Of a stretch of DNA of 64,000 bases, positions 237 to 45,900 are shown piece by piece; the first letter of the stretch is position 1, and the number at the start of each line of letters is the position of its first letter. Position numbers and translations under genes: made by a program. This DNA comes from Podarcis cretensis (lineage: Eukaryota). A model generated the notes under the pieces. The model searched no databases and had not been told where the DNA came from. It saw only the letters and a program-made list of their open reading frames with translations. The DNA lies in assembly GCA_951804945.1 (NCBI GenBank), contig OX638149.1, positions 48,546,001 through 48,610,000 on the forward strand. The letters run 5' to 3'.

Positions 237-695
237 AATAAAAAAATTCCTTCCAGTAGCACCTTAAAGACCAATTAAGTTAGTTCTTGGTATGAGCTTT
301 CGTGTGCATGCACACTTCTTCAGATACACTGAAACAGAAGTCACCAGACCCTTCTATATAATGAGAAGGTGGGGAGGGGTATTACTCAGAAGGGTGGTGG
401 GATTGGGTGATTGGCAGATAGCTGTGATGAGCCTGTTGACGACTCTTAACGACTGCAATAGGTCTTACAGGAAAAAGCAAGGGGTGAGAAGGTGAAAAAT
501 GGCTTTGTCATGTATAATGAGATAAGAATCCAATGTCTTTGTTCAGACCAGGTCTCTCCATGGTTTTAAGTTTGGTGATAAGTTGCAATTCAGCAGCTTC
601 TCTTTCCAGTCTATTTCTGAAATTCCTTTGTAATAGAACAATAGAATTTTTTAATTTTGTTTTGACTATGGCAGACCAACACGGCTACCTATCTG
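237..695 (-). mobile_element. Penelope-like element 3' fragment (GIY-YIG C-terminus + pLTR), partly inverted, 12-bp TSD
   Basis: The minus strand encodes VLLQRNFRNRLEREAAELQLITKLKTMERPGLNKDIGFLSHYT*; TSD aagctggaacat at 225-236 and 696-707; near-identical to 18030-18412. Confidence 0.85.
290..327 (-). ncRNA. Minimal type-I hammerhead ribozyme motif (Penelope pLTR)
   Basis: Reverse complement GTAT-CTGAAGA-A-GTGTGCATGCACAC-GAAA-GCTC-ATAC: core CUGANGA and GAAA, stem I GUAU/AUAC, palindromic stem II. Confidence 0.75.
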
Positions 696-2058
696 AAGCT
701 GGAACATGTGCAGAGGAGGGCAGCCAAGTTGTTTAAGGGCCTGGGAACCAAGCATGAGGAAGAACAGTTGCAGGAGTTGGGTATGTTTAACCAGGAGACT
801 GAGAGGAGATATGATAGCCTTCTTCAAATGTCTAAAGGGCTGTACATGGAAGATGGAGCAAGCTTGTTTTCTCTTGCTGCAGAGGATAGGACTCAAACCA
901 ATGGATTTGAGTTACAAGAATGGAGTTTCCAATTAAACATCAGAAATAACTTTCTGACAGTAAGAGCTGTTCAACAGTGGAAGAGACTCACACGAGATGT
1001 GGTGGACACTCCTTCCTTGGAGGTTTTTAAACAGATGTTGGACGACCATCTGCCATTTATGATATAGTTGAGATTCCTGCATTGCAGGGAGTTGGAATAG
1101 ATGATTCTATGATTGTACAATCTCTCGGGAATAGAAAAGGCGAATGCTGTATTTACAATAGAGGAGCTAGGAAGCTGTGCTTTCTCTTCTTCACAGCAAA
1201 CAAACATCTGAATTGACCCTGTGGAAACCTGTGCAAAAGCGACTGTAATGTTAGCCACTGTGTAAATCAAGATTTCACAGACAGCATGAAAATTGCAAAA
1301 TTGTTGTGACATCCATGAAATTGACCAATGCATAAACAGGCTATGGGTGACTTTTGAGTAGCTGTAGTAAACATCCCATGAGGAGAAGGACAGGTGTAGG
1401 TTTGGTTATAATCTAGCTTCATCTTCACATATATTCTGTGGTATATTTTGCAAGAGGGAAAAATATACATAGACAATATATTTGTGGTTGGGGGGATTAT
1501 TTGAGGCTATTTTGTCCTTTGTGGTTTAATATTTGGTGTGGGTATATTGTGTGATGGCAAGGTTTGGGTAGCATTTTATGTTAGAAATCAAAGTTTTCTG
1601 GGAGTGAAATGATTCCCATAAACTCTGGAAGGCTCTGCTGACATATGCATCAAACTGATCCCAAGCTCATTTAGCTGTCTCATATGACTATACTGAATAG
1701 GAGTGGGAACTAAGTGGAATCCAATCTTTCTGAATTCTGAAAAGATGATCCCATGAGGATGGTGAATAATCATCAGTCACTGTCCTCAGGGACTACCTTG
1801 TCACCAGTGTGTGAATATGTACCATGCGATAAAGCCAAGCTGTCATTGATCAGTCGAGTGAGGGACCTTATTAAAAGTTCTGGGGGGTGGAAGCTCAGAA
1901 TTGAGGAGCCCCAAAGTAAAATGTAGGGGTGTTTTCTCTCCTGTCATATCAGATATGTGCTATGTATTGTTATTGTAGTTGTTTGCACTTATTAGTCACT
2001 TTTTTTGAAAAGTAAACTCAAAGCAACTTACAATATAATACAAAAATCAAAACCAATA

Positions 2059-5121: not shown

Positions 5122-7700
5122 CTATTTTATTTATACCCTGCCCATCTGTCTGGGTTTACCCAGCCACTCTGGGCAGCTTACAGCACATAAAAAATTGTAA
5201 AACATCAGACAGTAAAAATTTCCCAATAAGGGGGCTGCCTTCAAATATCTTCTAAAAGTCAGATTGTTATTTGTTTCCCTAACATCTGATGGGAGGGCAT
5301 TCCACAGGGCGCACACCACTACTGAGAAGGCCCTCTGCCTGGTTCCCTGTAGCTTTACTTCTTGCAGTGATGGAACATCCAGAAGGCCCTCAGAGCTGGA
5401 ACTCAGTATCTGGGCTGAACATTAAGGGTGTAGACGCTCCTTCAGGTACAGTGGTGCCCCGCAAGACGAATGCCTCGCAAGACGAAAAACTAGATGAAAG
5501 GGTTTTCCGTTTTTCGAGGCGCTTCGCAAGACGAATTTCCCTATGGGCTTGCTTCGCAAGACGAAAACGTCTTGCAAGTCTTGCGATTTTTTTCTTTTTT
5601 CTAAGCTGCTAATAGCCGCTTTGCCGCTTTGCCGCTAAGCTGCTAATAGGGTTGCTTCACAAGACGAAAAAACCGCAAGACGAAGAGACTTGCGGAACGT
5701 ATTCTTTTCGTCTTGCGAGGCACCACTGTATACTGGGCCGAGGTCATTTTGGTCTTTAAAGGTCAGCACCAACACTTTGAATTGTACTCGGAAATGTACG
5801 GGGAGCCAATATAGGTCTTTCAGGACTGGTGTTATATGGTTTTGGTGGCCGCTCGCAGTCACCAGTCTAGTTGCCACATTCTGGATTAGTTGTAGTTTCC
5901 GAGTCACCTTCAAAGGTAGCCCCACGTAGAGCGCATTGCAGTAGTCCAAGCGGGAGATAACCAGAGCATGCACCACTCTGGTGACACAGTCTGTGGGCAG
6001 GTAGGGTCTCAGTCTACTACCACGGTGGAGTCTACCTCTTTCCAAATCTGAGTGACTTTATCTGCAAACAACTTTGCAAAATCATTCCAGGAGATCTTGG
6101 GGTCCTCACCAGGCCCTGATGGTGAAGGTGGTTCTGTTAGATTGCAAACTACCTGAAAGTCTCCTGCTGCTATTTTCTACAGATGCAATAGAGGCGGTGA
6201 AGAAGGTCCACTTTGCTGTTGCTATCACCACTTGGTTGAGCTCTAACCCACGTCTGCTCAGTTCAGAATATGTTTTCCACCACTGGCGCTCTAGCTGCCT
6301 CAGTGATTGTTTCATCGCCCTCAGCTCTGGAGAAAACCACAGGGCTGTCCGGGCTCCATGCAATCAGAGAGGGCACTTCGGAGCCAGACAGTTGATAGCC
6401 CTGGTTAACTCCGCATTCCAGTGGGCCACCAGGGAATCAGCTGAGAGGCCATCAGCATGGGATAAAACATCCCCTACCGCTCTTTGGAAACCATCTGGAT
6501 CCATTAAGTGGCGAGGGCGGACCATCCGAATCAGTTCTACCTCCCTGCAGAGGGAAAGGGTTGTGGAGAAGTCTAGTTGCATCAGGAAGTGATCCGATCA
6601 TGGCACTTCTTTTGTTTCACTTTTCCTTAATGTCAAATCACCCACATCCGTAGAGGTAAACACCAGATCTAAGGGATTTCCATGGCTATGAGTTGGGCCA
6701 AACTTATTCAGGGACAGCCCCATGGAGACCATGCTTTCTATGAAGTCCCAAGCTACCCCTTGTAAGGTTGTGCCAGCATGGATGTTAAAATCCTCTAGGA
6801 CAACCAAACTAGGTGTCTCCAGGAGAACATCTGCCACAACCTGAAGCAGCCCGGGCAGGGAATTCTTGGTGCAGCGGGGACGTCGGTACACCAAAAGGAA
6901 TCCTGCATTGCCCCTATTGCCCAGCTTCCAGAACATGCACTCAGAAAACTGGGTCTTCCCAATAGGATGCCTGGTGCAAACTAATGACTTCCTAAAAATC
7001 ACTACAACCCCTTCTCTCCCCACACATACGACCTGGGTTGCTGTGCTTAAGAAAAACTTGGTGGACAAGCAGCGGGCAAGAACAGGCCCATCTGCCTCGT
7101 TCAACCAAGTCTCTGTTACACATGCCAGGTTAAGTCCTCCATCCATGATCGCATCATGGATGGCAGCGGTCTTGTGAATCATTGACCTGGCATTGCACAG
7201 CAGCACCTTCAGGTCATGTGGGTATCCCTTGCTGATTCCAGTATCCATCCGGTCATGACCAGATCCGAAGGCAGGGATAGTCTTCCGACAACGAGTAAAC
7301 CTGCCTCTTCAGTAATGACATGGTCTGGTCCTAGCATAACTCCTTCTCTTACCCATGATCACTGAGATCAGGTGTCCCGGTGCATCCCCCCACTGTGGAA
7401 CATTCCCCAGCCATTCTGTTGGCTAGGGCCCACTCCCAGGCAGCCCTGACCCTCTCCCCTTCAGAACAGAATACAAACTATACAATAAACCAATAAGACA
7501 GTAGAAACCAATTATTAAAAAAATTACATTTATACTAAAACTAATCCCCAGCCCCAACTGAATGTTTATCCTACCCTCCAACAGAGCAAAAACAAACCAA
7601 AAACCAAAATTTAAAACACCACAGATTAAAACATATTTTAAAACATTTAAAAACATTTGGGGTAGGATGGAAAAAATTGCTGGAGCCATTTAGCAAGTAA
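5122..7700 (-). mobile_element. L2-clade LINE, internally deleted (APE endonuclease + ORF2 C-terminus, RT core missing)
   Basis: ORF 6598..7248 LLCNARS...ACVTETWL...DFNIH...LDLVF (APE); ORF 5635..6045 VHALVISRLDYCNALY...LQLIQN (L2 C-terminus); 3' tail abuts (CAA)n. The 5' boundary is approximate. Confidence 0.88.
5449..5728. mobile_element. Tc1/mariner MITE nested in the L2
   Basis: TA|cagtggtgccccgcaagacgaa ... ttcgtcttgcgaggcaccactg|TA; internal GCAAGACG repeats. Confidence 0.9.
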
Positions 7701-16088: not shown

Positions 16089-18029
16089 TTAGTAGCAGCT
16101 AGTAAATCCTCTGCCTCTGTAGCCAGAGGTGGTCATGTTTCTGAATGGCAATTGCTGGAGGCCACAGGAGGGGAGAAGGGTCTTATATGCTTGGGTCCTG
16201 CTTGCCACAGGCATTTGGTTGACCACTGTGAGAACAGGACGTTGAACCAAATGGGTCAGTGGCCTGTTCCAGCAGGTTCTTCTTATGTTCTTCTTATAAC
16301 TGTATGCTACTTCCAGGATCTGAGGCTGAATACTGGTTGCTGGGGGGGAGGTCAAGAGGGGAGAGCAGGGGTGGCTGATTCATAAGGGTTAAAGGGTCCT
16401 GTTATGTTCCTGTTCCAAGACAAGGCTCTCTTAAGAATTCTCTACAGCTCAGGAATGATGCAGTCATGAAGAAGAGAGATGTTGTGGTTGCAGGACTTGG
16501 AAAAGAAGGTTTTGCTTTACAAGTGGTTTACAAGAAAGATTGAGGAAAGGGCATTATGAATTGACCTGAGAAATGGGAAGGGGAAAGAGAATACAGAGGA
16601 GGGAATACCAGCAAGAAGGTGGCTTCAGGTGAAAAATGATCTGAGTACAGATTTAACAGTAAATGCAGAACAGAAAGGGTAATTTCAGGATATCTTACAA
16701 GAGAAAGAAGTGGTAGGACCACAAGATTCTGGTAAGGAAGTGAAAGAAAAATTAACAGTTAGTTGGTGAGGGTTATCATTAGTCAAGTGTGAAACACAAG
16801 GAGCTGCCTTGCACTGAGCCACACCATTGTACCACCTAGCTCAGTAGTAACCTGACTGGCAGTAACTCTCCAGAGTTTCAGACAGGTGACATTCGCAATG
16901 CTTCCTAGAAATGCCAAGGATCAAGCCTGGGTCACTTTGCTGTGCAAAACATATTATCCCTGCCCAAGGAACTAAGGAGTTAGCAAGACCTTCTACAATG
17001 ACAGAGAAATTTGGGGAGGAACACTGGTTAGAAACATAAAGAGAAGTAGACACCCTCACTGATTGCCACAGACTTATGGGGTCAGGCCCCTCAGTGTTTT
17101 TGGAAACATTTTGTATTAGACTCAAAGGAGGAAAGACAAAGTAGGAGAGCCAAGGGAACCTGGAGACCATCAGGAGGGAGGGAGACTGATAAGACGCAAA
17201 GAACTGGCAGTTTCTGGCATCTCTCCAATTAAAACAATGGCAGGTGTGTGTGTACTTCTGGCAGGGAAGAGCCTTGAGGCTACCATCTTGATACCCCTTT
17301 GGTGCTGGAGCTGAACGTAGGGCTAATAATGTGAGGAATGAGCCCAGACAAATAATTGCCTCCTGTGGGGTTGTGAAATGGACTCCTGAGAGTGCTGAGG
17401 AACAACTTTCATTTTAAAGTATTTGCAGTTCACTCATTGCACTTGCCAGTAAGACTTACCAAGTTTATGAGTATAAATAGAAAACTCTTTAAAATCAGCT
17501 CCCAGCCCTCCCACTGAAACCCAATTACTACTAAACCAAAACAATGTTTTTTCCACCGTTTCCCCCCTAGCTTAACACACAGTAGTACTGATTCCCAAAT
17601 GGAGGTTCAAGAACCGTTAGTGGCTTCCTGAGCCTTCTTGGCGATCCCAAGCAAAGCTAAACTTGGTCAGATTGGGCCACAAGTAAAAAGTTTAGGATGC
17701 CTCAGAAAAAAGGAAATGCACAAGGTGCTAACCAAATTGATATGGTGGCCATCTCTAGGCCTACTGCGAGGTAAGGAAGGCAGAGATGCTCATTGAGCGA
17801 TCATCAGGCAAGTTGTGCTATAGAAAGTGGAGGCATGTGCCAAATATGGATCATGTGTTGTAATTCGTCAGGGAGGGGCAGATTGGGGCAAGAGGACACA
17901 CTTTCCAACTCCTAAGCATGTGAAACAGGTGCATCTTCTGCATTTGAAGCAAACGAAGAATTTGGTATTTAGTGTACTGTGGTGGTGCCAAATTTGTCTT
18001 TCTTGGCACACTTTTCTGGATCTCAAGCT

Positions 18030-18412
18030 CTTATCACCAAACTTAAAACCATGGAGAGTCCTGGTCTGAACAAAGACCTTGGATTCTTATCTCATTATAC
18101 ATGACAAAGCCATTTTTCACCTTCTCACCCCTTGCTTTTTCCTGTAAGACCTATTGCAGTCGTTAAGAGTCGTCAACAGGCTCATCACAGCTATCTGCCA
18201 ATCACCCATTCCCACCACCCTTCTGAGTAATACCCCTCCCCACCTTCTCACTATATAGAAGGGTCTGGAAACTTCTGTTTCAGTGTATCTGAAGAAGTGT
18301 GCATGCACACGAAAGCTCATACCAAGAACTAACTTAGTTGGTCTTTAAGGTGCTACTGGAAGGAATTTTTTTTTTGTTTTGACTATGGCAGACCAACACG
18401 GCTACCTATCTG
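18030..18412 (+). mobile_element. Penelope-like element 3' fragment/pLTR
   Basis: LITKLKTMESPGLNKDLGFLSHYT* followed by the same 3' region as 237-695. Confidence 0.85.
18285..18322 (+). ncRNA. Minimal type-I hammerhead ribozyme motif, sense to the SLC8A3 pre-mRNA
   Basis: GTAT CTGAAGA A GTGTGCATGCACAC GAAA GCTC ATAC; predicted cleavage after C18318. Confidence 0.75.
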
Positions 18413-19906
18413 TAGCTAGCAACCCTGTTGACAAAAACACAAAAGCGAAACATCACACTTTTCGTTGTGTTATTTTATGTATCTGTTTATTCGCTAGGGT
18501 CCTTAACACTAGACCTTTCAGGATAAGCATCTCCTCTCTTTCTCCCCAACACTTCCTGCCTATGCACATGAAGAACATGTACCAGTGCATTTCCAGTGAG
18601 GTTCTGTGTAGAGCAGCAGGCAGCCTCTTCACTTCTCCAAAATCTTTCCTACTGTCGTGCCCACAGTTTTTCCCAATCATGCAGCCATGTTGGAAGCTCT
18701 CGACTCTGTTGGACGGCCTGGTTGTGGAACTATTACATATTTAATTCCTCTCCTAGTGCAGCTCTCCGTGAGGAACAAAGCCACTACACTCAGTTTTCCT
18801 GTCGCTTTCCGCAAAGGATTGATTAAAAAGCTACCACGACCAGACGAACACACAAGTTGATACTCTTCTTCAGATGTATTTCTCTTTGCACATATTAGCT
18901 GAGGCTGCCCCAGCTGCCTGGATGCAGAGAAAGGAGAGCAATCAGTGATGGATCACTCCTGAAGCCTTAAGGTCCCAGTGTGGCCTTGCAATGCTTTTGA
19001 CTGCCATGCTAGTGTGTTGGATGGGCTATTTGCCGCTTTAGAAGTATCCAGTTGTGGAGGGACACCATGTCTGGTACACAACTGTCAGCTAGGGTGTGGG
19101 GAAGACAGAGAACATTACACAAAGTGCCCACCTGAGAGGCAGCTGGAATTCAGTGTTTGTGAGTGAGAGCCGCTCAGCCAATCCAAGTGCTCTTTGGATC
19201 TCTCGCTTTTCATTCAGGAGAATGCAGCTGTCAAACCTAGGTTGATAATTTCTCCTCTGCTAGAGTCCAGCTCAATTAATTTCAAAAGATTGTCATGACA
19301 TTCTCATGGCAGAGTGTCACAGAGCCCCTTCTCTGTTGTTCTCTTCTTTTTTTGGTGCCTGCTTGTCACACCTTTTATATTAACATGACATCTTCACATT
19401 ATGTTGTCTCTCTTTCTGGCTCTCCATCTCTGTACGCTGCTCTTTGGGAAGTGCCAGGCATGGGTGACCATGGTCTAAGGTAGCAGTGTTCTTTTTTTTA
19501 TCAAATCAGGTATCACCGGTTTCTTTTTCATTTGCTTTTCCTTTTAACATGAAACATCATCATTGCGATTGAAGGCTAGACAGCAAAAAGCCCTGAGCAA
19601 CTGCAATCAGAGCTGTTGACTCCAACTTGTTAGCGGGATTCATAATAGCATAAGAACTGTCCTGCTGGGTCAGACTAAGGTCCATCTAGTCCAGTATTTC
19701 CAATAGTTGCCAACCAGATGTCTTTGGGTGTGCTGTTTTCTGCCAGCATCCAGATGTATGTTGCCCTGTATATATGCAGAGACTGTATTTGGTTATTGTG
19801 ACTAATCACTCCTAAGGATGGGCGAATTTGTCCATTCTGGTTTTTTCTCAGCTTCTAATTTTTCTATTCTTTGGTTCAGTTCTCTATATCTCCACATCAG
19901 TTTGCT

Positions 19907-22828: not shown

Positions 22829-22963
22829 NNNNNNNNNNNNNNNNNNNNNNNNNNNNNNNNNNNNNNNNNNNNNNNNNNNNNNNNNNNNNNNNNNNNNNNN
22901 NNNNNNNNNNNNNNNNNNNNNNNNNNNNNNNNNNNNNNNNNNNNNNNNNNNNNNNNNNNNNNN
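22829..22963. other. Assembly gap (N run)
   Basis: Run of n. Confidence 1.
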
Positions 22964-25187: not shown

Positions 25188-25294
25188 CAAAACTATTCAC
25201 ATCAAGGTAATTGATGATGAGGAGTATGAGAAAAACAAGACTTTCTTCATTGAGCTGATGGGCCCACGCATGGTGGATATGAGTTTACAGAAAG
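25188..25294 (+). CDS. SLC8A3: NCX3 mutually exclusive exon A (107 nt), KTIHIKVIDDEEYEKNKTFFIELMGPRMVDMSLQK
   Basis: Acceptor tttttccattcacag|C, donor AAAG|gtgtag; phase 2 in, phase 1 out; translation matches NCX exon A. Confidence 0.93.
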
Positions 25295-26874: not shown

Positions 26875-29800
26875 ATGCACTTGCTCTTTGTTCCATTGGG
26901 CTTCTATTTCCAAGTGCACTTCTTTTACCCTCATGACTTCTTTCCGGATTAACGCAGAGGCAGTCTCAGTGTAACATTTTGCATTTTAAGAAAAGGTTAG
27001 ATGCAACACCTAAATGTAGTTCCACATCTGTTTCCCCGCTGAGCCACTCAGGAGCCCAACTTCAGGGTCTCCTCCTTCACACAATTATTTTGATGTTGAC
27101 CTGACATCTTTGTGACCAGGACTGTTTCTGAGCAGTGCCTTGGAGGCTGTCAACATCACCCTGGAGGCAGAAGTGTAGATGTGGGAACAGTGGCAACATA
27201 CACAGCTACCTAAATACCTTCTTCCTTAAAGGCCTTTTCAATACACATAGAGAGACTTTACCAGAAAATGGTGGCAGTCTGATGCACCTGACTGTACTGT
27301 GGGAATTGAGAGTGTTTCAAACATGCGACCTAAAAAACACATTTGAGCTTTTTTCACTCTTTGTGCCATGTATTAATTTGGCAGAGAATTCAGAAGAGAG
27401 TATCTGCCGCTGCCAGGGTAGATTTTTCATTTGTGTTAGGAGCCAATTTAAGCCTCATATGTGGAAATGCCCTGAGATAGGTGTCTGACAAAAGTCTTGA
27501 CTGCTATTTATTTGTCTCTCAGAGTTGCTTCTGATATTCTTCACATTACAAAGGCCTGTTTCAGACGGTAGCTACTTTGTGGCACTTACCTTACCTATGT
27601 GTGGTTTCAAAATGTAAGGGATGAAATTTTCATATCTGCTTCTCCTGAACAAGTAACTAGGAGGGATTGTGTTAGAACTGGCCTAAGAGCTCTAATAGAA
27701 AGCCCCAGGGACATTACAGGGCAATCTCCAGGGGGAAAGAGAAAGTAGGAAATGATCAGTTTTCTTCCTTTTGACACATTTGACAGAATAAAAGCAACCA
27801 TACTGTTACCATTAGCCCTTTTCTGCTGCTGCCTTAGTGTTAACATAATGTACCATTAGGAAGGGAAAGAATCAAGTCAGTGAACTTTGTAAAAGTCATT
27901 TAAACTGCATTCTTACCAGTGTCTCTTTTTTGAATGAAAATGACATGCTTACCTGGTTGGATTGCATTGTGCCTTTAACCTTGTAACACTGAATTTCATG
28001 AACACTGAGTAGCACCTAGGGCTGCCATATTTCAGAAAAGTAAAAAACCAGGACAGACACCCCGAACATTGTTGAACTTTTTTTATAACAAAAACACCAA
28101 AGAAGCTTGATTTTTTGATTGACTTTCCTAAGATCAAAGTGCCGCCTTTCGGAAATTCCCCTGGATGTCAATTCCACCTTTGAAATCCTGGTAATGTCTA
28201 GGGGGGGGGGGGGATCCGGACGTATGGCAGGCCTAGCAGCACCTCATTCAGCAAAAGCAAATTTCTAAGCCACAGGCACCTCCAGCCCCCCCCCCCCAAA
28301 AAAAAAACTACATAAGCATATCAGATCCTGGCCTGGTTGGCATTATGCTTAACTATGATTTAAAGCTGAATGAGAAACATGCTGGTGCCCAGTGCAAAAA
28401 TTGCAAGCACTTTAATCCCCTCACGCTTTTGCTGCTGCCACACTGCCAGGAACTAAGCCATGGTTTGTCTTAGCATTACATCCAAACAGAGGCTTGTATT
28501 GTCCCTCTCCAAACAAGCCACGAGCTGTAACTAAGGTTTCCTCTTGGATTCCATCGCAAGGTTTGTTTGGGGAAAACAAACGACAGGCCAGAGTTCAGGT
28601 GTAATACTGATGGATTCATTCTCAGCAAGAGCAGAGAAGGAGCCAAGCAGCTGCAATTTTAGCTCCATGCACCAGTATATATGTAAACCATAGTTAAACT
28701 TAAATGGACCTGCAATTGCAGGCGTGCGTTTTTAAAGGAAAGGGGAAAAGTCAGTGTGTGTCTTCTTGGAGCAAGAGTACTACCCTAGATGGAAAGAGGT
28801 GTGCGTGTGTGTACGTGTATGTGTGTATGCTAATGTAACCATGCTCCCCGCCAAAGACCAAACCTGATATTATAAAATGTGTGTGTGAGAGAGAAATTGG
28901 CTCTTCTCCTAAAACACTTCAGGTATATGTGTGTGTGTCTTTGGCTCTGCTTTGCCTATGGACATTTTTGATTGGTTATTGTCGAGCCAGCTGACAAGCT
29001 GTTATTACCATGTGACACTCAACTAAATGTGCTGCAGAAATCACCTTCCACTAACCATCAACAAGGACCAGGTTCCCTTTCCTCGCCCCTTGCCCCTCCC
29101 AGCCCTCCTTTCCTCCTCTAACGTTCTCCGACTCACCTAAAGATCAGCTACGACCAGCGTGCCATAGAAAGCCAGTGAAAGGGCTGCCACAGGCAGTGGC
29201 AGGAGTGGGAATGGTGCATGTGGGAATGGTGTGGCGGTGGAGGTGCTGCCGCTGCTGCTGTTTGCTGCATCTGCTCCCAACCAGGCAACCCACTGTACAC
29301 ACATGTCTTTCTTGTTGTCCCTACAGGAAGACCGTAAGGGTTAATATAGTAGATGAGGAGGAATACGAAAGGCAGGAGAATTTCTTCATTGCCCTTGGTG
29401 AACCGAAATGGATGGAACGAGGAATATCAGGTGTGAGATTCTTTTTGGAAAAACAAACAAAAGAAACCCAAATCCACAAAAAAGTAATCTTTTTGCTCCC
29501 CCCCACCCTTTTTTTCTCTTTCATTTTTACACGGACCAAGTTTTATTCCTTTCCCTCCTATATTCTCGCTCTCACCCTGTTTCGGTCCCATCTCTGAGTT
29601 TTTGAGCCTAGCTTATTTCGGATCCTCCTTTCGTGCAGTGCTTGTGCCTGTCAGGCCGTGTGAGCCGCGTGTGTTTGAAGCGTTTCTTCTCTTTCTCTCT
29701 CTCTCTCTCGCTTTCTTCCCCCTTTCGGTGACATCTTTGGCCTTCTCCCTCATGCTGAGACTGAAAGCCCTCCCCAGCCCTGCCAAAAGAATGCAACTTG

Positions 29801-42900: not shown

Positions 42901-45900
42901 AGACATTTCTATATTACATTCTTTGTATACACACCTGGATCCCTTGTGTACAAAGAGAGAGAGACACCAACTGGAGAATAACTGGGAAGCAAAGAGGCTC
43001 TTTCCTTCTTATAATTCGATCAGCTCTTCAGTTTCAGGAAGTCTTTCTCAGCTGTTCCCATAGTAATTTTGTTGCTCTAATTCAGTAGTGTGCTAATTTA
43101 ATCAGATCTTCTGGAACCAAATAATATGTATTAAAATAATACGATTTCTGCCCTTTCTTGTGCTCAGATTTGATTGCTTTTGGCAGGTAGCATTGGATAA
43201 TTCACTCACTTGGCACTACTGGAAGTTGCTCTTAAGTTAATAAGGAAAGAGGCTAAATCTCTGACCATGTTAGGAAAGAAAAAAGTTGCCCAGAACACAG
43301 CACCAATTCCTCACCAGCCACATCTGCTCCAGACAGCACCCCCCTCCTTTAGATGAGCTGTTGAGTGAGCAAGGTTTATATAATGACACTTCTCCTCCAC
43401 TTAACTTCTGCAGTCGGGCCCCCTTCCACGGGCTTCGTTGACATCCCTTGGACGCATGGACGATGTACTTACTTCAAACCCTGTAAATCCTGTGGCAGAT
43501 GATATCCAAAGCAACATAAAAAATGCATATGCCACTGCGCACGTAGAGTGCCACTCAGGACAGATCATGACTAATAAGTAAAGAATGGAGGTGACATTTT
43601 CACTTAGTCCATGTCATGTTAGATTTAGAAAATGCAAACATTTCAGGAGTGTTGGAAAAAATTACGTTGAAAATTACATTGAAGTCTCTTTGCCTCTAGC
43701 TTCTGCCTCCCCACCACCACAAAACTTCTATGTTGCGTAGCCTTCTTTAGGCCCATTTCTGCATAGAAAACTCTCCCTGTCTCTCTCTCTCACACACTCA
43801 CTCTCCTCCTCTCCTCCATCTCTCTCTCTCACTCACTTACTCTGTGACAGTGTGACACAATGGCTGTATTATTGTCCCCATGTTCATGAGTCTTCTATGT
43901 ACATTACATGTTTTCTCTGCCCTTCAGAAGTTCGGTTGCTCTTGATAACCTGTTTGTTTGTTTGTTTGTTTGTTTGTTTGTTTGTCTCTCAGAACTAGGC
44001 ATTACATGTTTGTAAGGTTGCCTACCTAAAACTATCCAAATTCAGAACAATTCAAATTAGGGTGTATGAAGATGTGAAGGAATAATGAAAGCATGTGGGC
44101 TTTTTAATCCTATATTCTAACATTGACCTATGCTAGGGATGGAGGACCTCTGCTCTAGAAGTGTTACTTGATTACAGCTCCCATCATTGCTGACCATTGA
44201 CCATGTGGGCAGAAGCTGAGGGAGGTTTGAGGAATCCAACAATATCTGGAAGGCCACTGTTGCCTGTTCCTGACCTGCACCATCAATGAGCATCTATCTG
44301 AATGTTTGACATTCAAAATAGAATCTTCTAGAGGCACAAGCTGTACTAGGAAATATTGCTATGTTCTTAACTGTTGTGGCACCTTAACTGGGCTTTGAAG
44401 TTCCAAAAGATGTTGAGAGCCACAGGGCGAGAGACTTTGTGACTCTTCTAACCCCTTCCCTCTTTGAGAATCTTGGTCATGAGGGATAGCTATGTAACGG
44501 CAAAGATAAGGAAGGAGTCCAGAGTTTCATATCTGGGCATCGCCAAGATTCAGAGATATGGAATTCTAGTAGTCATGTAACTAGGAACTACACTTAAGTT
44601 GTGACTGAAGCTACTCCAACTCAAATTTCTGGCAGTGTGACTCATTGTTCGAATATTCTGACATGTCAGACACATGTTGAGCTTATGGGTCATCAGAGCC
44701 TAGTTCATCCCAGTTTATGCAGTGAAATACTCCTACAACAGATAATTCACACAATCTGTCACTATGTAAAACAATTCACCAATGCATGATTATTTAAACT
44801 AATAGTTGTAGTATTGTTTGTTAATCACCCCATACCATAGTTTTCTGAGCAATGTACAGTAAAGTTTAAAACAAATTTTAAATGATAAATATAAATAGTG
44901 CAATTAAAAAAATGCCACAATAACACACAAATAATGTACCCAAGGGAGGCATGCCTGACACCAATATTGTGTACTTTTTGGCATGTGCTTAAAACCTTAT
45001 TTGCCCAGGCATGTTATAGCATTTTTAGCTGGTTGAAGGTTTGGTTCATCCTAGTTTTATTGCACTGTTGGTTTGGTTTATAATAAATTGATAGTTTTTA
45101 AATGTCTTCTTATATCATCCTACAGTTCATTTTTATATTGAGNNNNNNNNNNNNNNNNNNNNNNNNNNNNNNNNNNNNNNNNNNNNNNNNNNNNNNNNNN
45201 NNNNNNNNNNNNNNNNNNNNNNNNNNNNNNNNNNNNNNNNNNNNNNNNNNNNNNNNNNNNNNNNNNNNNNNNNNNNNNNNNNNNNNNNNNNNNNNAGTCT
45301 CACATCTCTCTCACATCACAAGAAGTGTAATGTCCAGGATGGACGTGATCATTATCCACCTGGACATAAATACTTTGTGATGTTTTCAGTGAAGACTCAC
45401 CTTCCTTTCCTCTAAAGTAAATCTCAGTATCATTTTGGAACCGCTTTCACTCACTCCAGAGTGTCTGTGATTTACACCTCTTGCAATAAGGGTAGGCTTG
45501 CCCCACCGTCCTGGAAATGCACCCTCCATTTCTCCTTGTCCAGAAAGAGGGCATCTTGCCTCCCACCTGCCATTTAGCACTTGCTTAAGTTCAGAACGAA
45601 GGGTGTTAAGGTGGAATTATTTCCTCCCAACCTTTGCCATATCTGGAAAGCAGAGATGGGAGCCGAGGAGGAACTGGCACATTCATTTCCCTGCCTGGCA
45701 TCTCCAGACCTTATCAGCACTAATTGGACTTGACAGCTGGGAGTCTCGGGTGCAAGCCATGTTGAAAGCTGAGTACTGAGGCTGATGCAAACAAATCAGG
45801 GCTGGTTAATAATTAAGCTGCAGTTTGGCAGCTTTCACCTTGACAGACTTGACCTGTCAAATTAAAAACTCTTCAGCTTTTTTTGTTCCCGGACATACCT

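What the first reader, a model, noticed from the sequence alone, without database searches (positions are those of the whole stretch)
18285..18322. Hammerhead ribozyme motif in the sense strand of the SLC8A3 pre-mRNA
Seen: GUAU-CUGAAGA-A-GUGUGCAUGCACAC-GAAA-GCUC-AUAC has an intact catalytic core, a 4-bp stem I, a perfectly palindromic stem II and a rudimentary stem III with the palindrome AGCU. Established: Penelope-like elements carry minimal type-I hammerheads thought to act as dimers. Inference: this copy is transcribed inside the long intron upstream of exon A and could cleave co-transcriptionally after C18318, possibly only in trans with another Penelope RNA.
Basis: partly seen in the sequence, partly recalled or inferred. 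Interest (0 to 1): 0.7.

Follow-up and report, generated by a model that had tools for sequence, protein, structure and literature searches.

The report
Young Penelope transposon stub with hammerhead
The self-cutting RNA motif in this SLC8A3 intron is real, but it is one of over 6,000 identical copies spread by a known kind of jumping gene, this insertion is missing from the four other sequencing runs checked, and on its own it likely does not cut the host RNA.

Summary
The motif is real: a minimal type-I hammerhead at 18285-18322 (+), predicted cut after C18318, on the sense strand of the ~90-kb SLC8A3 intron before the first alternative exon. It is not a host feature. It lies in a 385-bp, 5'-truncated stub (18030-18414) of a Neptune-type Penelope-like element, 385/388 identical to an intact 3,011-bp RT/GIY-YIG tandem unit elsewhere in the genome. 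The genome holds 6,322 exact copies of the 38-mer. All 4 DNA runs laid (3 samples under one organism label, 1 under another) carry the empty site, so this insertion is young and unfixed. No second intact sense copy was found in this intron, and the dimer is predicted weaker than two monomers. Copy ends pile up at the hammerhead's 5' edge, about 30 nt below a TATA box, not at the cut site, so the family is likely copied from uncut RNA. Published min-hammerheads are inactive as monomers and weak as dimers. Verdict: ordinary passenger, likely inert; activity not tested here. This scan has reported such Penelope hammerhead stubs before in other genomes.

The parts
18030..18414 (+). 5'-truncated insertion of a Neptune-type Penelope-like element (ORF end, pseudo-LTR and tail)
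   Evidence: 385/388 identical to the tandem unit in L081 (G000:C14:51.05 Mb), differences only in the T-run length and at the 3' junction. Empty site in 4 of 4 DNA runs: joint 18032->18413, 380 bases skipped, 7 other letters between.
18030..18104 (+). Last 24 codons and stop of the element's RT/GIY-YIG ORF
   Evidence: Translation equals the C-terminus of the 948- and 925-codon open frames in L056 and L081; Pfam RVT_1 and GIY-YIG on the L056 frame.
18252..18258 (+). TATA-like box of the pseudo-LTR, about 30 nt above the inferred transcription start (function inferred)
   Evidence: Sequence; spacing to the pile-up of copy ends.
18278..18285 (+). Zone where over half of the family's copies begin; inferred transcription start. 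It also reads as a possible 3' splice acceptor (pyrimidine run then CAG at 18281-18283)
   Evidence: Only 2,638 of 6,322 exact 38-mers keep these 7 upstream bases; 10 of 30 sampled copies start at 18276-18290; 18285 is among the best-supported loose ends in all 4 DNA runs.
18285..18322 (+). Minimal type-I hammerhead motif; predicted scissile bond 18318/18319
   Evidence: 6,322 exact genomic copies, control 0.
18373..18414 (+). Penelope 'tail'; includes the element's first ATG (18387) and first codons; this copy ends at the distal of two end clusters
   Evidence: 3' ends of sampled copies fall mostly near 18370-18386 or 18412-18419; ATG context from L081.
237..700 (-). Second copy of the same family, antisense in the same intron, with an identical hammerhead at 290-327 and a short inverted tail at 644-700
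   Evidence: about 97.5% identical to the focal copy.
25188..25291 (+). First alternative exon of SLC8A3 (exon-A type), 6.9 kb downstream of the hammerhead
   Evidence: Calx-beta hit; matches the equivalent NCX1 stretch; junction position. The label 'exon A' is recalled.
29327..29430 (+). Second alternative exon of SLC8A3
   Evidence: Best match PDB 2lt9 Slc8a3, E 7e-17.

Best explanation
This is the pseudo-LTR hammerhead of a very young, unfixed, 5'-truncated Neptune-type Penelope-like insertion that landed in sense orientation in an SLC8A3 intron, and as a lone copy it likely does not cut the pre-mRNA or affect the gene. Shown: identity to an intact element, copy number, empty sites, orientation. 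Inferred mechanism: a read-through RNA from a tandem element was reverse-transcribed from the internal 'tail' start (18414) back through the uncut hammerhead and promoter, and stopped at 18030. It joined the target with 2-3 nt of microhomology and loss of about 7 target bases. In the intact element the hammerhead sits at the very 5' end of the transcript, about 100 nt above the ATG, once per 3,011-nt unit; any real activity likely belongs there (tandem RNA, element protein), not here.
For: 6,322 exact copies on both strands equally. 385/388 identity with an intact tandem unit. Empty allele, on an unbroken contig at about flank depth, in 4 of 4 DNA runs. No second intact sense copy in the intron; the nearest is 110 kb upstream, beyond the large exon and inside an inverted pair. 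Predicted double-hammerhead dimer -11.1 against -13.6 kcal/mol for two monomers; the preferred dimer is the stem-II palindrome duplex at -30.6. Stem I pairing 0.03 or less with 50 nt or more of flank. Of 8,748 copies with the 18-mer just 3' of the cut, 7,871 keep the 4 bases 5' of it and 507 more are variants at position 17, mostly U; 0 of 30 sampled copies start at 18317-18321. Papers: a min-HHR monomer showed no cleavage and multimers low cleavage (PMC4209133); the anole PAc hammerhead did not cleave without protein, cleavage was not needed for insertion, and no RNA-seq ends were found at the site (PMC11167929); introns cut by a slow hammerhead still spliced (as cited in PMC2995048).
Against: No cleavage or RNA-end data were obtainable, so inertness is inferred. 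The core is fully intact, and related older elements keep stems I and II with compensating changes (1 clear case of 3 looked at, L118), so the motif is under selection in the element. A review states that such hammerheads likely act as dimers (PMC6765202), and thousands of identical copies could supply partners. Nearest-neighbour energies ignore Mg2+, tertiary contacts, proteins and co-transcriptional folding. Contigs show that the empty allele is present; they do not strictly prove the filled allele absent. Genomic copies record only RNAs that got inserted, so they cannot show that cleavage never happens.
Confidence: 0.85

Rival explanations
1. The copy is cut slowly in trans, by pairing with another Penelope RNA through AGCU and stem I or with help from the element's protein, in cells where the element is expressed; the effect on SLC8A3 is small or nil.
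For: Intact core and palindromic stem III; a nested double-hammerhead is formable (-11.1 kcal/mol); intact ORFs exist in the genome; protein-assisted cleavage was shown for anole PAc (PMC11167929).
Against: The dimer is predicted weaker than two monomers and than the off-path duplex. This stub keeps only about the first 30 nt of the ORF, whereas PAc needed the first 172 nt of its ORF for activity, the proposed protein-binding region; this is an analogy across clades. No copy-end signature of cleavage.
Confidence: 0.1
2. The insertion affects SLC8A3 by something other than the ribozyme: its pseudo-LTR promoter (TATA 18252, start about 18283) or its possible 3' splice acceptor acts inside the intron.
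For: The stub keeps the whole upstream pseudo-LTR in sense orientation. Drosophila Penelope's 3' pseudo-LTR is stated to be able to drive downstream exons (PMC2377424 passage).
Against: No RNA evidence; that Drosophila promoter is described as internal and TATA-less; the insertion is unfixed.
Confidence: 0.08
3. A host-domesticated intronic ribozyme regulates SLC8A3 splicing, like the conserved amniote intronic hammerheads.
For: Sense orientation, 6.9 kb above the alternative exons.
Against: Empty site in 4 of 4 runs; no substitutions against an intact element over 18030-18365; no stable helix III; no Rfam hammerhead hit.
Confidence: 0.01
4. The insertion at this site is an assembly artefact.
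For: None of the 4 runs laid shows a filled-site junction in the listed rows (the tables are cut).
Against: The junctions look like a real event (microhomology at both ends, 7 target bases replaced, 3' end at the family's usual tail position).
Confidence: 0.03

Closest known systems
Minimal hammerheads (min-HHR) in pseudo-LTRs of metazoan Penelope-like elements (Cervera and De la Pena 2014, PMC4209133; parts 1-2 of 4 read: results, discussion, start of methods; supplements not opened)
   Same: Type-I topology, full core, 4-bp helix I, unpaired base between 9 and 10.1, G10.1-C11.1, palindromic 15.2-16.2, no helix III, location in the pseudo-LTR, thousands of mostly solo truncated copies; reptiles are named in the paper.
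   Different: Helix II is 5 bp, against 6-8 bp in the paper's examples. Copies are extremely uniform (6,322 identical), like the Drosophila virilis invasion case and unlike the heterogeneous families reported for most genomes.
PAc (Poseidon_Ac) of Anolis carolinensis (Frangieh et al. 2024, PMC11167929; parts 1-2 of 4 read)
   Same: RT plus C-terminal GIY-YIG, tandem units, two 3'-end clusters bounding a tail, insertion apparently from uncut RNA.
   Different: Here the linker has the CX2-5CxxC motif of Neptune/Nematis, and the hammerhead lies wholly upstream of the ATG at the inferred transcript start; in PAc the ORF starts inside stem II.
Neptune-clade EN+ Penelope-like elements (features from passages of bioRxiv 10.1101/2021.04.23.441226)
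   Same: Domain order, CX2-5CxxC linker, DKG motif, 5' truncation, partial tandems, inverted 5' copies, 30-40 bp tail.
   Different: No RT tree was built, so Neptune against Nematis rests on the linker motif plus recalled reptile Neptune sequences.
[quoted passage not shown]
   Same: A hammerhead on the sense strand of a long intron.
   Different: Those are single-copy, conserved and monomer-competent (recalled); this one is high-copy, unfixed and lacks helix III.
Animal non-LTR retrozymes (bioRxiv 10.64898/2026.07.22.740005; part 1 of 5 and passages read)
   Same: Short dispersed sequences with a type-I hammerhead, related to Penelope pseudo-LTRs.
   Different: This copy is not a tandem array of non-coding monomers; it is the truncated end of a coding element.

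Membership tests
PLE min-HHR | Core CUGANGA, GAAA and UH | tested here: met
PLE min-HHR | Unpaired base between 9 and 10.1; G10.1-C11.1 pair | tested here: met
   A18296; G18297-C18310
PLE min-HHR | Short helix I (4-5 bp), minimal palindromic helix III | tested here: met
   4 bp; AGCU at 18314-18317
PLE min-HHR | Larger than usual helix II (6-8 bp in the published examples; canonical 4) | tested here: inconclusive
   5 bp plus a 4-nt loop
PLE min-HHR | Sits in the pseudo-LTR of an RT/GIY-YIG element | tested here: met
   L081 and L082: hammerhead on both sides of the ORF, 3,011 and 3,005 bp apart
PLE min-HHR | Covariation of stems across families | tested here: inconclusive
   3 of 49 pattern hits were from other families; L118 shows compensating changes in stems I and II, the other two are degraded
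PLE min-HHR | Self-cleavage as a dimer | not testable with these tools
   Energies only
Neptune-type EN+ PLE | Single ORF with RT and C-terminal GIY-YIG | tested here: met
   Pfam RVT_1 E 7.5e-12 and GIY-YIG E 4.8e-5 on L056; 925-codon open frames in L081
Neptune-type EN+ PLE | CX2-5CxxC linker motif and DKG motif | tested here: met
   Residues 785-793 and 332 of the L081 frame
Neptune-type EN+ PLE | Tandem or inverted insertions, 5' truncation, tail | tested here: met
Neptune-type EN+ PLE | Placement in RT phylogeny | not tested
   No named reference set was fetched
Host-conserved intronic hammerhead | Fixed and conserved at the orthologous site | tested here: not met
   Empty site in 4 of 4 runs
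Host-conserved intronic hammerhead | Stable helix III, canonical fold | tested here: not met
   no Rfam hammerhead hit
Non-LTR retrozyme | Tandem non-coding monomers, each with a hammerhead | tested here: not met
   Single copy with an ORF tail

The most novel reading that the evidence does not exclude
A recent Penelope burst has seeded thousands of identical, intact hammerheads through this genome; where the element is expressed, its RNA or protein switches on the sense-intronic copies in trans, so the transposon works as a dispersed, inducible pre-mRNA cutter. The filled and empty SLC8A3 alleles are a ready-made natural test.
Probability: 0.06. Interest if true: 0.65.

Novelty: new member of a known kind. 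Interest (0 to 1): 0.14.

Why it matters
As a locus it matters little: it is one unfixed stub among thousands. The family is useful for an open question, what Penelope hammerheads do in vivo. It is young and uniform, it has intact tandem units, and its copy ends suggest that insertions come from uncut RNA starting at the hammerhead's 5' edge, which extends the anole PAc result to a Neptune-type element. Filled and empty alleles allow allele-specific tests of whether such a motif ever harms a host pre-mRNA.

Tried and rejected
Rfam: no hammerhead family matched at E<=10 in 5 kb or in 221 bp. The pattern had one base too many before the core and returned only 51 insertion variants; not used. RNA evidence: no RNA holder listed. 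Three contig sets guessed to be RNA cover the pseudo-LTR; two, labelled as other organisms, rise at 18281-18294 and dip after 18316 while the DNA run is flat, and the one with this window's organism label shows no dip. Contigs cannot show ends, strand or level, so none of this is used. The 10% loss of copies across the cut site (8,748 to 7,871) first looked like a cleavage footprint; 507 of the 877 lost are variants at position 17, leaving 370 (4.2% over 3-4 bases) against 2.2% over 3 control bases. A small excess of 1-2% is not excluded. Spliced-template idea (candidate donor 18144, acceptor 18283): 0 of 25 copies lacking the upstream 7 bases carried the upstream exon end, read by eye. The stem II palindrome needs only a palindromic 4-nt loop and is absent from the 3 other-family hits; no function claimed. 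Papers: Lunse et al. 2017 (dimer cleavage) and de la Pena 2010 were not held; only their titles were seen. One search fetched an unrelated paper. Searches 'SLC8A3 + hammerhead' (0 papers), 'Penelope + Podarcis + transposable' (3 listed) and 'Penelope-like/Neptune/squamate/lizard' (20 of 22 listed) showed nothing on this family by title or abstract start; Repbase and Dfam could not be searched. The look-up of earlier findings by sequence was empty. A sense/antisense bias of intronic copies could not be tested without annotation.

Full report
Observation. The 38-nt motif is at 18285-18322 on the plus strand exactly as described. It has a 4-bp stem I, the CUGAAGA box, one extra A, a stem II that is a perfect 14-nt palindrome (5 bp plus a 4-nt loop), GAAA, the palindrome AGCU in place of stem III, and C17 at 18318. 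A descriptor scan of both strands of the window gave 2 hits, this one and an identical copy at 290-327 on the minus strand; 200 dinucleotide shuffles gave 0.045 loose and 0 strict hits per window. It is not chance. Rfam did not recognise it, and its folding energy is ordinary (z -0.44).

Host gene. Exons with Calx-beta and Na_Ca_ex domains lie on the plus strand. Of 4 SLC8 large exons in the genome, one lies upstream on the same strand and ends at C1:48,481,150. Its end and the exon at window 29328 both match PDB Slc8a3 better than NCX1 (134 against 113 bits; 61.6 against 37.2). The first alternative exon starts at window 25188, so the intron is about 90 kb and the hammerhead is in sense orientation, 83 kb from the donor and 6.9 kb from the acceptor. 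The intron is inferred from protein homology, not from RNA. The animal is probably a lizard (recalled from the motif and genome size; not tested).

What carries the motif. The stretch 18030-18414 is a repeat. Its first 75 bases are the last 24 codons and stop of a long ORF. [quoted passage not shown] L081 holds a tandem array with a 3,011-bp period and two 925-codon open frames, each preceded by the identical hammerhead about 100 nt above the first ATG. The frame has the CX2-5CxxC linker motif that marks Neptune and Nematis elements (criterion from passages of 10.1101/2021.04.23.441226). The window copy is 385/388 identical to that unit, with no substitution over 18030-18365. The exact 38-mer occurs 6,322 times, 3,134 forward and 3,188 reverse, control 0. 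Many copies are short, 5'-truncated and paired with an inverted partner, with 3' ends mostly near 18370-18386 or 18412-18419, the known Penelope tail pattern (PMC11167929).

This insertion is not fixed. I laid 4 of the 5 DNA-like holders listed. In all 4 (three samples labelled organism A, one organism D) a single contig runs from 17643 to 18032, carries 7 other letters and resumes at 18413, at about flank depth (7.4, 74.7, 13.7, 9.3). In two of the organism A runs that contig has 0 differences from the window. So the empty allele exists in what is likely the same species and in a relative. The 7 replaced letters and 2-3 nt of microhomology point to a small target deletion, not a duplication. 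Contigs show presence only, so the frequency of the filled allele is unknown.

What copy ends say. Adding the 7 bases upstream of the hammerhead cuts the count from 6,322 to 2,638. In 30 copies picked by an 18-mer just downstream of the cut site (the first 30 of 8,748 along C1, several being two arms of one insertion), 12 start above 18276, 10 at 18276-18290, 8 at 18291-18316 and 0 at 18317-18321. Of 52 distinct hammerhead starts in fetched loci, 25 lacked the 7 bases; by eye 3 were substitutions and 22 were ends, and all 7 ends without the reference T had a G before 18285, which may be a copied cap (inference, small non-random sample). A TATA-like box sits at 18252. I infer that the element's transcript starts at about 18282-18285. 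Across the cut site the count falls from 8,748 to 7,871; 507 of the 877 lost are variants at position 17, mostly U, and a 3-base control step loses 2.2%. At most 1-2% of copies could begin at the cut. The window copy itself spans the site, so its template was uncut. This agrees with anole PAc, where uncut RNA was the main substrate and no RNA-seq ends mapped to the site. It does not show that cleavage never happens, since cut RNA might simply not be inserted.

Could it cut here? Monomer: helix III cannot close over a 2-nt loop, and stem I pairing falls from about 0.7 alone to 0.03 or less with 50 nt or more of flank. Cis dimer: a search of 130 kb upstream plus the window, in separate 10-kb pieces, found family pieces at 4 places: an inverted pair 25 kb above the large exon, an older antisense piece, the antisense copy at 237-700, and this one. 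No second intact sense copy is in this intron. Trans dimer: the double hammerhead scores -11.1 kcal/mol against -13.6 for two monomers, and the preferred dimer is the stem-II duplex at -30.6. These energies ignore Mg2+ and proteins. Published tests: a Schistosoma min-HHR was inactive as a monomer and weak as a dimer or trimer (PMC4209133); PAc needed its protein. Even a slow hammerhead cut in an intron was reported to leave splicing working (Dye 2006 and Fong 2009 as cited in passages of PMC2995048). The main paper on dimer cleavage (Lunse 2017) was not held, and supplements of the papers read were not opened; both may bear on rates.

Against my reading. The core is intact, one older relative shows compensating stem changes (L118), intact ORFs are present, and thousands of identical partners exist, so slow cleavage in trans in cells expressing the element is not excluded. 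The stub also brings a candidate promoter and a candidate splice acceptor in sense orientation. No RNA data could test either.

Comparison and verdict. It meets the tested sequence features of the Penelope min-hammerhead (helix II length and covariation inconclusive) and of a Neptune-type element, and fails those of a host-conserved intronic ribozyme and of a retrozyme array. No paper held links SLC8A3 with a hammerhead. Earlier notes of this scan describe the same kind of stub in other genomes, one with the same uncut-template reading; I saw them after making my counts. New member of a known kind; interest 0.14.

Noticed in passing
window 237-700: Second copy of the family, antisense in the same intron, with an identical hammerhead and a short inverted tail; whether it is fixed was not tested.
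   Followed up: partly
L081 (G000:C14:51054500-51063500): Tandem array of 3,011-bp units, 99.97% identical, with two 925-codon open frames; shows the family is very recent.
   Followed up: partly
window 18144-18283: Candidate 140-nt spliceosomal intron in the pseudo-LTR (GTAAG donor, pyrimidine run and CAG acceptor) ending just before helix I, as reported for Drosophila virilis Penelope; no spliced copy seen among 25 read by eye.
   Followed up: partly
G000: A subfamily of about 500 copies differs at the cleavage position, mostly U for C, linked to other diagnostic changes downstream.
   Followed up: partly
L118 (G000:C5:92533200-92533700), L119, L120: Remnants of other, older Penelope-like families with different stem I and stem II sequences; L118 keeps pairing through compensating changes.
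   Followed up: partly
window 5635-7308 and 666-1067: LINE fragments: an endonuclease-like frame on the minus strand (Pfam Exo_endo_phos below cut-off) and a CR1-like RT tail (recalled resemblance) next to the antisense Penelope copy.
   Followed up: no
G000:C16:13092186 (L060): A fourth SLC8 large exon besides three others, possibly SLC8A4, which mammals lack (recalled).
   Followed up: no
window 22829-22963 and 45143-45295: Two N stretches; the first lies in the same intron and could hide a short piece.
   Followed up: no
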